The position numbers are program-made. A DNA stretch of 40,035 nt from a virus (taxonomy: Duplodnaviria > Heunggongvirae > Uroviricota > Caudoviricetes): IMG/VR virus record IMGVR_UViG_2851938318_000014; one strand, 5' to 3'. Shown here one piece after another: positions 33,001 through 36,000 of this stretch; the first letter of the stretch is position 1; each line of letters starts with the position of its first letter.

Positions 33001-36000
33001 GTTTGTGAATTTTGTCCTGGTAAGGACTGAGTTGTTTTGTCATAATTACTCCTGTGGATTGATCCAGTCTTTCTACATCAGGCCTCGAAGAATTCGCCGT
33101 TCTTCGGGGCTTTTTCTTTTGTCAGCATTCTGGCTACTTTCTTAGCCAGTTCCGCCAACTCCTCGTCTTCAACACCCCATTCAAGAACAGCCAGAAGCAT
33201 TCCCATTTTTGGGATGAAGCTGTCTTTCCATCGCGAAATTTGCGATTCATTAATTCCTAACGCGTCAGCAACCTTTCGCTGGCCACGTACAGCAATTCGG
33301 TTCAGGATGTTGCTTGTAATTGCATTCGCTTTCTTGCGAGTACTTGTAAGTTGCATATGTAAGTATTTCCTTAGATAACAATTGATTGAATGTATGAACC
33401 GCCCCGGAAATCCTGGAGACTAAACTCCCTGAGAAAGAGGTAAACAGGATGACTAAAAATACTCGTTTTTCCCCCGAAGTCCGTCAGCGGGCGATTCGTA
33501 TGGTTCTGGAAAGTCAGGATGAATATGACTCACAGTGGGCGGCAATTTGTTCCATTGCCCCAAAGATTGGCTGTACGCCGGAGACTCTGCGTGTCTGGGT
33601 TCGCCAGCATGAGCGGGATACCGGGGGCGGTGATGGTGGGCTCACCAGCGCTGAACGTCAGCGTCTGAAAGAGCTGGAACGTGAAAATCGTGAACTGCGC
33701 CGCAGTAACGATATCCTTCGCCAGGCTTCCGCTTATTTTGCGAAGGCGGAGTTCGACCGCCTCTGGAAAAAATGATGCCACTGCTGGATAAGCTGCGTGA
33801 GCAGTACGGGGTCGGACCGGTATGCAGCGAACTGCATATTGCCCCGTCAACGTATTACCATTGTCAGCAACAGCGACATCATCCGGATAAACGCAGTGCC
33901 CGTGCGCAGCACGACGACTGGCTGAAGAGAGAGATACAGCGCGTATACGATGAAAATCATCAGGTGTACGGTGTGCGTAAAGTCTGGCGTCAGTTGTTAC
34001 GGGAAGGAATCAGGGTGGCCAGATGTACAGTGGCACGTCTCATGGCGGTTATGGGACTTGCCGGTGTTCTCCGGGGTAAAAAGGTCCGTACGACCATCAG
34101 CCGGAAAGCCGTTGCCGCAGGCGACCGCGTAAACCGTCAGTTCGTGGCAGAACGACCTGACCAGCTGTGGGTGGCTGATTTTACTTACGTCAGCACATGG
34201 CAGGGCTTCGTCTATGTGGCGTTTATCATTGATGTGTTTGCCGGATACATCGTGGGGTGGCGGGTCTCATCGTCTATGGAAACGACATTCGTGCTGGATG
34301 CGCTGGAGCAGGCGTTGTGGGCCCGTCGTCCGTCTGGCACCATCCATCACAGCGATAAAGGCTCTCAGTATGTGTCACTGGCCTATACGGAGCGACTAAA
34401 AGAAGCCGGATTACTGGCATCAACAGGGAGTACAGGCGACTCGTATGACAACGCGATGGCTGAGAGCATCAATGGTCTTTACAAAGCGGAGGTAATACAC
34501 CGTAAGAGCTGGAAAAACCGTGCAGAAGTGGAACTGGCCACACTAACGTGGGTGGACTGGTATAACAATCGACGATTGCTGGGAAGGCTGGGCCATACTC
34601 CTCCGGCAGAAGCAGAAAAAGCTTATTATGCTTCCATCGGAAACGATGATCTGGCAGCCTGAGTTCACAGATAAAACACTCTCCAGGAAACCCGGGGCGG
34701 TTCACTCCATCGGTTGACTGCGAACAAATCCTGAAAGACTTCAGCGATTATGCAGCGACAGAAACTGACAAGAAAAAACTCATCGAGCGTTATCAGCGTG
34801 ACTGGCAATTAATGGCTGGCAACGAGGAGGCGCAGGCTAAATGCGTTCAGGTGATGAACATCAGAGTTAACGAACTAAAACAGGAGGCATAAATGGGACG
34901 TGGAGTTAATCGCGTAATCATTATCGGTAGATTAGGCCAAGATCCTGAGGTGCGCTATTCACCATCAGGAACGGCATTTGCAAACCTTACAGTTGCTACG
35001 TCAGAGCAATGGCGTGATAAGAAAACTGGAGAGCAAAAGGAGCAGACGGAGTGGCACCGCGTGGTAATGAGCGGAAAACTGGCAGAAATTGCCAGCGAAT
35101 ATCTGCGAAAAGGCTCTGAGGTTTATCTTGAAGGTAAATTGCGGACAAGAAAATGGCAGGATCAAAGCGGACAGGATAGGTTCACTACAGAAGTTATCGT
35201 GGGCGTTGGTGGAGCCATGCAAATGCTTGGTGGCAAGCAAGGAAGCAATGAACAGTCTTCACCTCAGCGAAATAACGGCCAGCAACAAAGACAGCAATCT
35301 CAGCAGCATGGGAATTACGGCGAACCACCTATGAACTTCGACGATGAAATCCCCTTTGCACCAGTAACTCTCCCCTTCCCTCGTCACGCTATTCACGCAA
35401 TTTAATCAGGAGAAAATCATGCCAGCGCCTCAGTATGGTGCGGATGACCCGCGCCGCTGTTCCGGCAATTCCGTATCGGAGGTGCTGGATAAATTCAGAA
35501 AAAACTACGCCCGGATAATGTCGCTACCGCAGGAAACGAAAGAGGAAAAGGAATTTCGCCACTGTATATGGCTTGCAGAGAAAGAAGAGCGCGAGCGAAT
35601 TTACCAGACATCAATCCGACCATTCCGCAAAGCCACATATACCCACTTCCCTGAAATTGACCCGCGCCTGCGTAATTACCGCTCACGCTATGGCGCTATC
35701 AGTAATGACTGAGGAATTTACCATGAGAGGACTTGCATACAATCCCGGCATTCTTCCGGCAGAAATGATTATTCGCCAACGCGTAAAGACAATGCCATCG
35801 AGAGAGGAATTGCTTAAGAGAAATTCTTTTCCGTCAGTGAATCAAAACAAATATCTGAATGCGATGTGGCGTAAAGGAGGCAAGCAGTGAGCGAAATTAA
35901 TTATCAGGCACTGCGTGAAAAGGCAGAGAAAGCAACTAAAGGAAGCTACATCGTAGGGCATACATCTGTTAACCAGCACGGCAATTTAACAGGAGTTTTT

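What the first reader, a model, noticed from the sequence alone, without database searches (positions are those of the whole stretch)
33357..34892. IS629 copy 2 sits where the immunity region should be: no cI, cro or N
cII is intact, but only 38 bp upstream of it is the IS629 left end. On the other side the IS abuts the 3' 61 codons of an early-left gene that runs into ssb. Everything expected between (cro, oR, cI, oL, N and proximal early-left genes) is absent and there is no target-site duplication, which fits an IS-associated adjacent deletion. Without a repressor or N the prophage cannot maintain or execute a normal lambdoid programme.
Basis: partly seen in the sequence, partly recalled or inferred. 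Interest (0 to 1): 0.65.

Follow-up and report, generated by a model that had tools for sequence, protein, structure and literature searches.

The report
IS629 replaces immunity region of cryptic Stx1 prophage
In detail: an IS629 element sits where the repressor/cro/N control region of this Shiga-toxin-1 prophage should be. It is a known feature of the long-described cryptic O111 prophage CP-1639, and the copy here is a rare, later-rearranged allele, not the element that made the original deletion.

Summary
Confirmed. A 1310-bp IS629 (33395-34704) lies 38 bp upstream of an intact cII. It abuts the last 188 bp of erf, which runs into ssb, and it has no target-site duplication. The window equals E. 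coli RM9131 chromosome 3168153-3208187 and holds the whole ssrA-integrated Stx1a prophage, a CP-1639-type cryptic prophage (AJ304858, about 99.98% identical). No cI, cro or N exists anywhere in it. Measured against phage Sf6, which shares both flanks, about 5.4 kb is missing: tR1, nutR, cro, oR, cI, oL, N, ral, cIII, kil and the 5' part of erf.

The single adjacent-deletion explanation is only partly right. About 30 O111 genomes, including the 1977 isolate, carry an older allele: IS629 truncated at nt 890 and joined to erf at a 6-bp microhomology, leaving 571 bp of erf. The immunity region was already gone there. The window's allele (full IS629, 188 bp of erf) occurs in only two Salinas isolates. 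One derived SNP places it inside the older allele's diversity. It therefore needed a second IS629 plus recombination or deletion, which explains the missing duplication. This is ordinary, well-documented IS-driven prophage decay, so interest is low.

The parts
33078..33356 (-). Intact cII (92 aa), now without pR or any recognisable promoter.
   Evidence: ORF. Pfam PF05269 over its full length. No sigma-70 consensus site in 32900-35500.
33334..33366 (+). Orphan pRE with the CII-binding repeats (TTGC-N6-TTGT). It points into IS629, in the sense direction of the transposase genes.
   Evidence: The sequence is identical to the Sf6 region annotated as P_RE and c1/CII binding site. Coordinates were mapped. 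Function is inferred, not tested.
33357..33394 (.). 38-bp spacer between the cII start and IS629. Its last 9 nt are the start of the tR1 homologue.
   Evidence: Identical to the Sf6 cII-upstream sequence, which continues TGCAAATAAATGCA... (tR1, nutR, cro).
33395..34704 (+). Full-length IS629 (IS1203 isoform), copy 2. orfA is 33449-33775, the ALIL pseudoknot is 33730-33846 and orfB is 33772-34662.
   Evidence: It is identical to copy 1 (12845-14154).
34705..34892 (+). 3' remnant of erf (61 codons plus stop).
   Evidence: Translation compared with Sf6 Erf. PGAP annotates it as a 'recombinase, missing N-terminus' pseudogene.
34893..35405 (+). Phage ssb, intact but without pL or N.
   Evidence: Pfam SSB.
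35419..35712 (+). abc2 (anti-RecBCD protein 2), intact.
   Evidence: Pfam PF11043 over its full length.
36791..36802 (.). Scar left by excision of a third IS629 (IS_c) at the junction between the phage and the truncated intA. Eight bp of intA (TATGGTGT) were lost with the IS.
   Evidence: CP-1639 reads ACTTCA|IS629|TATGGTGTTGATCCCC, whereas the window reads ACTTCATGATCCCC. SD134209 and 7-55 62A carry different scars.
12845..14154 (+). IS629 copy 1, in the tail module. It also lacks a target duplication and is flanked by truncated tape-measure and gpU genes.
33080..33122 (+). Terminator of the oop antisense RNA, overlapping the 3' end of cII. It is retained.
   Evidence: Terminator-like hairpin plus T-run. 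The conserved oop motif lies at about 33040-33072 and matches the motif quoted in PMC3349717.

Best explanation
The window holds a complete but heavily decayed, ssrA-integrated Stx1a prophage of the CP-1639 type from E. coli O111.

Ancestral lesion (inferred from comparison):
- An IS629 inserted between pRE and tR1, 38 bp upstream of cII.
- A deletion of about 5 kb then ran from inside that IS (nt 890) to codon ~46 of erf.
- The two ends joined at a 6-bp microhomology (GAAACG).
- This removed tR1, nutR, cro, oR/pR/pRM, cI, oL/pL, nutL, N, ral, cIII and kil.
- The resulting allele ('type B') is the common one in O111.

The window's allele ('type A', inferred):
- It arose later in the RM9131/RM9975 lineage.
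- A second, complete IS629 entered the erf remnant in the same orientation.
- Homologous recombination with the truncated copy, or an equivalent nested insertion plus rightward deletion, removed 383 bp more of erf.
- This rebuilt a full-length IS whose two flanks come from different insertion events, so there is no target duplication.
- The same lineage also excised a third IS629 from the phage/intA junction, together with 8 bp. That is the kind of scar IS-excision enhancer (IEE)-promoted excision leaves.

Consequences (inferred; no expression data):
- With no pR, pL, N, cI or cro, the genes cII-O-P-Q and ssb-abc2 have no phage promoter.
- The prophage can neither be repressed nor induced.
- Stx1 is probably made only from its own iron-regulated promoter.
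For: Identity of the locus:
- The window equals RM9131 3168153-3208187 exactly.
- It is about 99.98% identical to CP-1639 across the shared segments.

Absence of the immunity genes:
- tblastn with every ORF from the immunity regions of Sf6, HK620 and phi296 found nothing in the window.
- PGAP annotation of the whole prophage lists no repressor, Cro, N, integrase or excisionase.
- Pfam scans of ORFs in unannotated gaps found nothing relevant.

Size of the loss:
- Sf6 shares the 38-bp spacer exactly and erf at 96.7% identity.
- Against Sf6, 5019 bp are missing in type B and 5402 bp in the window.

Allele frequencies among 5426 complete genomes:
- The left junction is present in 31 genomes, plus one 4-bp variant.
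- The window's right junction is present in 2 genomes.
- The type B junction is present in CP-1639 and in most O111 genomes.
- The microhomology at the type B junction is shown.

Polarity (type B older, type A derived):
- At window 29951, RM9131 and RM9975 share a derived A with type B strains RM9322 and E2855 and with type-B-derived strains.
- CP-1639, TW05614, FWSEC0005, UTAK-8 and three outgroup prophages have G.
- The window lineage carries derived states: the IS_c scar, which lost 8 bp of genuine intA coding sequence, and a private stx1A SNP.

Other IS629-driven rearrangements at this locus in O111:
- an inversion between IS copies;
- a nested insertion;
- leftward deletions into the dnaB-like gene;
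- a deeper deletion into ssb.

IEE is reported to give IS629 excision with adjacent deletions and microhomology-mediated joining (PMC9943667).

No promoter-like site lies around the IS. A Fur-box-like site lies about 100 bp upstream of stx1A.
Against: - Polarity rests on one informative SNP. A paralogous prophage in O111 (E2863, at 2528408) carries the same allele, so gene conversion could mimic shared ancestry.
- No intermediate (type B with a complete IS629 at erf -188) exists among 5426 complete genomes.
- The true progenitor's immunity region is unknown, so '5.4 kb' is an estimate from a mosaic relative.
- No transcription or induction data were available.
- The original CP-1639 paper could not be read.
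- I did not check whether RM9131 carries iee.
Confidence: 0.8

Rival explanations
1. One reading: this very IS629 copy inserted near cII and, in one transposase-mediated adjacent deletion from its right end, removed everything up to erf codon ~175.
For: The IS is complete. The deletion endpoint is exactly at its right terminus and there is no target duplication. IS629-adjacent deletions are documented.
Against: About 30 related genomes have the same left junction but a truncated IS and 383 bp more of erf. A truncated IS cannot regrow and deleted erf cannot return, so the two alleles are not related by one deletion. The derived SNP at 29951 nests the window's allele among type B strains. The right junction is limited to two isolates from one locality.
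Confidence: 0.07
2. Both alleles descend independently from an unseen ancestor with a full IS629 next to cII and at least 571 bp of erf. Type A would arise by an adjacent deletion from the IS end, and type B by a microhomology deletion starting inside the IS.
For: Neither allele can be derived from the other by deletion alone. Each route needs only one step from such an ancestor. Strain 9662 also has a full IS next to cII, with a different right flank.
Against: No such ancestor exists among 5426 complete genomes. SNP 29951 groups type A with some type B strains to the exclusion of others, so the identical 890/erf junction would have had to arise twice. Over about 38 kb RM9131 is no more divergent than type B strains are from each other. 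Strain 9662 has a 34-bp spacer, which marks a separate event.
Confidence: 0.1
3. Assembly artefact: the full-length IS and the shorter erf result from collapsing or mis-joining IS629 repeats in the RM9131 and RM9975 assemblies.
For: These genomes hold about 40 IS629 copies. Both assemblies come from the same place, and probably from the same laboratory.
Against: Two separate complete assemblies agree base for base over 40 kb. A mis-join would not also delete 383 bp of unique erf sequence or leave clean junctions. The IS is only 1.3 kb long.
Confidence: 0.03

Closest known systems
Cryptic Stx1 prophage CP-1639 of E. coli O111:H- 1639/77 (GenBank AJ304858.2; Creuzburg et al. 2005, Microbiology 151:941, not held in the library)
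   Same: It has the same ssrA integration, the same gene order and about 99.98% identity. It has the same cII-38 bp-IS629 left junction and no cI/cro/N/int/xis. An IS629 sits in the tail module, and a truncated P4-type intA lies beyond the prophage.
   Different: In CP-1639 the IS next to cII stops at nt 890 and erf retains 571 bp. A third IS629 sits at the phage/intA junction. The window has a full IS, 188 bp of erf, and an 8-bp-deleted scar in place of the third IS.
Early regions of P22-like phages Sf6 and HK620 and of Stx phage phi296 (the intact reference state)
   Same: The cII, pRE, O and dnaB-type P modules are 98-99% identical to HK620 and phi296. The spacer is identical to Sf6. The erf-ssb-abc2 module is 94-97% identical to Sf6.
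   Different: These phages have tR1, nutR, cro, oR, cI, oL, nutL, N, ral, cIII and kil between cII and the recombination genes (4.4-5.4 kb). Here that stretch is replaced by IS629.
IS629 / IEE-driven small structural polymorphisms in EHEC genomes (PMC9943667 and the work it cites)
   Same: IS629 excision leaves exact or few-bp-deleted scars and uses microhomology. Deletions lie adjacent to the IS. Rearrangements recur at one locus.
   Different: The ancestral junction lies inside the IS (nt 890), not at an IS terminus. It is therefore not the canonical transposase- or IEE-type deletion. IEE was not looked for in this genome.
Stx1 prophage VT1-Sakai of O157:H7 (AP000400)
   Same: It is an Stx1 prophage that carries IS629 at 99.8% identity.
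   Different: Its IS629 lies in the head-gene region, next to a scaffolding-protein gene, not in the immunity region. It also integrates at another site (my own knowledge, not tested here).

Membership tests
IS629 (IS3 family) | About 1310 bp with imperfect terminal inverted repeats that begin TGAAC | tested here: met
   33395-34704 is 1310 bp. The 13 terminal bases are perfectly inverted and further positions also match.
IS629 (IS3 family) | orfA (HTH) and orfB (DDE/rve) joined by a -1 frameshift at an A-rich slippery site with a downstream pseudoknot | tested here: met
   Pfam HTH_Tnp_1 and rve. GGAAAAAATGA overlap at 33767. Rfam ALIL pseudoknot at 121.5 bits. PGAP annotates a 'programmed frameshift'.
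IS629 (IS3 family) | Near-identity to reference IS629 | tested here: met
   99.8-100% identity to elements annotated as IS629 in VT1-Sakai and other phage records. PGAP names it the IS1203 family, which is the same element.
IS629 (IS3 family) | 3-4 bp target-site duplication from a simple insertion | tested here: not met
   The flanks are GTA and CTC. This is expected if the two flanks derive from different events. It does not affect the identity of the element.
Functional lambdoid immunity/early control region | cI-type repressor, cro, oR/oL operators with pR/pL, and N with nutL/nutR | tested here: not met
   No tblastn hit with three immunity types. None appears in the PGAP annotation of the whole prophage. 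Gap ORFs have no relevant Pfam match. Homology to Sf6 stops 9 nt into tR1.
CP-1639-type cryptic Stx1 prophage | Integrated downstream of ssrA, carries stx1AB, lacks int/xis, carries IS629 insertions, and is followed by a remnant integrative element with a truncated intA | tested here: met
   tmRNA gene at 698-1060, stx1 at 23528-24763, and the annotation and alignment. The window has two IS629 copies rather than three.
CP-1639-type cryptic Stx1 prophage | Non-inducible (cryptic) phenotype | not testable with these tools
   Inferred from gene content. The literature calls this prophage type cryptic.
Transposase-mediated IS-adjacent deletion | The deletion endpoint coincides exactly with an intact IS terminus and the same IS copy is ancestral at the site | tested here: inconclusive
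   The endpoint is at the IS terminus in the window. In the ancestral allele the endpoint is inside the IS, at nt 890, with microhomology. The last step to the window's allele could be IS-IS recombination or an adjacent deletion from a nested second copy.

The most novel reading that the evidence does not exclude
The orphan CII-dependent promoter pRE (33338-33366) is intact and now fires straight into the IS629 transposase genes, about 30 bp downstream. CII of the P22/Sf6/HK620 type, supplied in trans by a superinfecting or co-resident lambdoid phage, could then switch on IS629 transposase from this copy. That would couple phage infection to bursts of IS629 transposition or excision in O111. 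Nothing here tests this. It rests only on orientation and on sequence identity to an annotated pRE.
Probability: 0.05. Interest if true: 0.45.

Novelty: already known. Interest (0 to 1): 0.15.

Why it matters
This adds little beyond book-keeping. It explains why the O111 Stx1 prophage at ssrA is locked in place and cannot be induced, so toxin output should depend on the iron-regulated stx1 promoter and not on the SOS response. That fits what is already published for CP-1639-type prophages.

The comparative series of alleles at this one locus is a tidy natural illustration of how IS629 keeps remodelling a dead prophage. The series includes a truncated IS, a nested IS, an inversion, deletions in both directions and three different excision scars. 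These junctions could serve as lineage markers for O111 subtyping.

Tried and rejected
- I first took strain 2013C-3250 to be the missing intermediate, because its span (3877 bp) equals type B plus one IS plus 3 bp. Its annotation and alignment show instead a second IS629 nested inside the truncated copy at about nt 270. Rejected.
- I looked for a phage with both flanks and an intact centre. phi296 and HK620 share the cII-O-P side but use other recombination modules. Only Sf6-like phages share erf-ssb, so no single true progenitor was found.
- I tried to read the CP-1639 paper by PubMed id. It is not held.
- I tried to find a second phylogenetic marker. The stx1A SNP proved private to RM9131 and RM9975, so it says nothing about nesting.
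- I considered linking the loss of the third IS and the gain of a full IS next to cII in one event (an inversion as in strain 7-32 9A, or an intramolecular transposition). The segment between them keeps its original orientation, so I treat them as separate events.
- The promoter scan found no site that could drive cII or ssb. PADLOC gave nothing for the island genes to the right.

Full report
**1. The observation**

- cII (33078-33356, minus strand, 92 aa) is intact and matches Pfam Phage_CII end to end.
- Exactly 38 bp separate its start codon from the left end of a 1310-bp IS629 (33395-34704).
- The IS has matching terminal inverted repeats, orfA and orfB with HTH_Tnp_1 and rve domains, and the ALIL frameshift pseudoknot.
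- It is 99.8-100% identical to elements annotated as IS629 in phage records.
- Its right end abuts 188 bp that encode the last 61 residues of the recombination protein Erf. 58 of the 61 residues match Sf6 Erf.
- The erf stop codon overlaps the ssb start at 34893.
- The flanking triplets are GTA and CTC, so there is no target-site duplication.

**2. What the window is**

- The window is identical, base for base, to E. coli RM9131 chromosome 3168153-3208187 (bovine faeces, Salinas, California).
- It starts in smpB, passes ssrA (tmRNA gene, 698-1060) and holds an entire prophage. In window order the prophage runs tail, head, a truncated lysis module, stx1AB, Q, the nin region, a dnaB-type P, O, cII, IS629, the erf remnant, ssb, abc2 and ead.
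- At about 36797 the prophage joins a truncated P4-type integrase that belongs to an older integrative element.
- This is the cryptic Stx1 prophage CP-1639, described from O111:H- strain 1639/77 (AJ304858.2). Shared segments are about 99.98% identical.
- A 2026 preprint on O111:H8 strain UTAK-22 describes the same element as a cryptic Stx1a prophage at ssrA with three IS629 copies and no int/xis (PMC13596339).

**3. What is missing**

- Phage Sf6 shares both flanks. Its sequence upstream of cII is identical through the 38-bp spacer and then continues into tR1, nutR and cro. Its erf is 96.7% identical.
- Against Sf6, the window lacks 5402 bp: most of tR1, nutR, cro, oR/pR/pRM, cI, oL/pL, nutL, N, ral, cIII, kil, small ORFs and the first 520 nt of erf.
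- HK620 and phi296 have near-identical cII-O-P modules. They likewise carry cro, cI and N next to cII.
- So no intact relative naturally places cII beside erf.
- The IS lies just downstream of pRE. The CII-binding repeats and pRE (33334-33366) are intact and point into the IS.

**4. No displaced cassette**

- I ran tblastn with every ORF of 30 aa or more from the immunity regions of Sf6, HK620 and phi296. Only chance matches of 13-23 residues appeared.
- PGAP annotation of the whole prophage lists no repressor, Cro, N, integrase or excisionase.
- ORFs in unannotated gaps have no relevant Pfam match.
- The prophage carries further lesions: the holin gene is absent, only a lysozyme fragment remains, and IS629 copy 1 sits between truncated tape-measure and gpU genes.

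**5. The same locus in other genomes**

Among 5426 complete E. coli genomes:
- The cII/IS629 left junction occurs in 31 genomes, all from the O111 group, plus one 4-bp variant.
- The window's right junction (IS629 end joined to erf -188) occurs in only two: RM9131 and RM9975, both from Salinas.
- The common allele is also the one in the 1977 German isolate. There the IS stops at nt 890 and is joined to erf 383 bp further upstream, so 571 bp of erf remain.
- That junction lies in a 6-bp microhomology. IS629 reads ...ATGGAAACG|ACATT and erf reads ...ATGAAACG|CCTGG.
- The immunity region is therefore already absent in an allele whose deletion endpoint lies inside the IS. That is not what a transposase-made adjacent deletion looks like.

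Other O111 strains show further IS629 events at the same spot:

| Strain | Event |
|---|---|
| 2013C-3250 | second IS nested in the truncated copy |
| 7-32 9A | inversion between the truncated copy and an inverted third copy |
| UTAK-8, 2009C-3675 | leftward deletions into the dnaB-like gene |
| 9662 | full IS, 34-bp spacer, deletion into ssb |

**6. Which allele came first**

- Neither allele can be made from the other by deletion alone.
- Over about 38 kb compared in 12 strains there is one informative SNP, at window 29951:
  - RM9131 and RM9975 share A with type B strains RM9322 and E2855 and with several type-B-derived strains.
  - CP-1639, TW05614, FWSEC0005 and UTAK-8 have G.
  - Three progressively more distant outgroup prophages also have G.
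- A is therefore the derived state, and the window's allele nests among type B strains.
- The window lineage has other derived states:
  - CP-1639-type genomes have a third IS629 at the phage/intA junction (ACTTCA|IS|TATGGTGTTGATCCCC). The window has neither the IS nor the 8 bp TATGGTGT, which encode Tyr-Gly-Val(first two bases) of the integrase.
  - Two other O111 strains lost the same IS with different scars: exact removal in SD134209, and 4 bp lost on the other side in 7-55 62A.
  - This is the pattern reported for IEE-promoted IS629 excision with microhomology joining (PMC9943667).
  - The lineage has a private stx1A SNP, Ser to Phe at precursor residue 240, seen in 2 of 349 stx1a-carrying genomes.
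- Caveat: the polarity rests on one SNP, and a paralogous O111 prophage carries the same allele. Gene conversion is therefore possible.

**7. Most likely history and mechanism**

- Step 1 (inferred): IS629 inserted between pRE and tR1.
- Step 2 (junction shown, mechanism inferred): a microhomology-mediated deletion of about 5 kb, from IS nt 890 to erf codon ~46, removed the control region. This gave the common O111 allele.
- Step 3 (inferred): in the RM9131/RM9975 lineage a complete IS629 entered the erf remnant in the same orientation. It recombined with the 890-bp truncated copy. Alternatively a nested copy made a rightward deletion. Either way the result is one full IS flanked by sequences from two different events, so there is no duplication. 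No intermediate is present among the complete genomes.
- Consequences (inferred):
  - No sigma-70-like promoter lies within 32900-35500, so cII-O-P-Q and ssb-abc2 have lost their promoters and antiterminator.
  - The prophage can be neither repressed nor induced, excised nor packaged.
  - A Fur-box-like site lies about 100 bp upstream of stx1A (15 of 19 matches). This fits toxin expression from the gene's own iron-regulated promoter, which is established knowledge for stx1.

**8. Comparison with what is known, and verdict**

This is a documented cryptic prophage. The GenBank record of CP-1639 already shows cII, IS629 and erf adjacent, with no cI, cro or N. IS629-driven decay of EHEC prophages is well known. 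What this analysis adds is the ordering of alleles, and the point that the window's IS copy did not make the original deletion. Interest is low.

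Noticed in passing
window 36479-37759 (junction at about 36796): A 426-aa chimeric ORF fuses a phage early-left ORF to a P4-type integrase that lacks its N-terminal arm-binding part. The junction is the excision scar of a third IS629. Three O111 lineages carry three different scars: 0 bp lost, 4 bp lost on the left, and 8 bp lost on the right.
   Followed up: yes
window 12845-14154: IS629 copy 1 is identical to copy 2. It also lacks a target duplication (flanks GTT and TCC). It sits between a tape-measure gene missing its N-terminus and a gpU gene missing its C-terminus, so a second IS-associated deletion removed tail genes.
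   Followed up: partly
window 28039-28237 (minus strand), upstream of ant 27282-27986: Rfam finds C4 antisense RNA, isrK and the c4 a1/b1 target sites. This is a P1/P7 immI-like antisense control cassette for the antirepressor Ant, retained in a prophage that has no repressor left for Ant to act on.
   Followed up: no
window 23240-23449 (minus strand): A full-length match to the sRNA family STnc100 (176.7 bits) lies just downstream of stx1B, in the stretch where the holin and lysozyme genes are missing or truncated.
   Followed up: no
window 24036 (stx1A codon for precursor residue 240): A private Ser-to-Phe substitution in Stx1A, found only in RM9131 and RM9975 among 349 stx1a-carrying complete genomes.
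   Followed up: partly
window 37798-40035 and beyond (L012 24464-28421): The remnant island beyond the truncated integrase encodes a 582-aa protein with a Response_reg_2 (PF19192) domain and a 572-aa HEF_HK/HATPase_c protein. Neither matches a PADLOC defence model, and their function is unknown.
   Followed up: partly
L004, L005, L006, L007, L002, L016 (other O111 genomes, same locus): Independent IS629-driven rearrangements of the same prophage. They are an inversion between IS copies (7-32 9A), a nested IS (2013C-3250), deletions into the dnaB-like gene (UTAK-8, 2009C-3675), a deletion into ssb with a 34-bp spacer (9662), and a large rearrangement that brings a different tail module next to the third IS (FWSEC0005).
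   Followed up: partly
window 33040-33122 (plus strand): The oop antisense RNA promoter motif and terminator, overlapping the 3' end of cII, are retained.
   Followed up: no
L016 and L017, about 7250-7294 (terminase large subunit): FWSEC0005 and TW05614 share a 44-bp length difference that turns the terminase gene into a pseudogene. These two strains also carry the G allele at window 29951.
   Followed up: no
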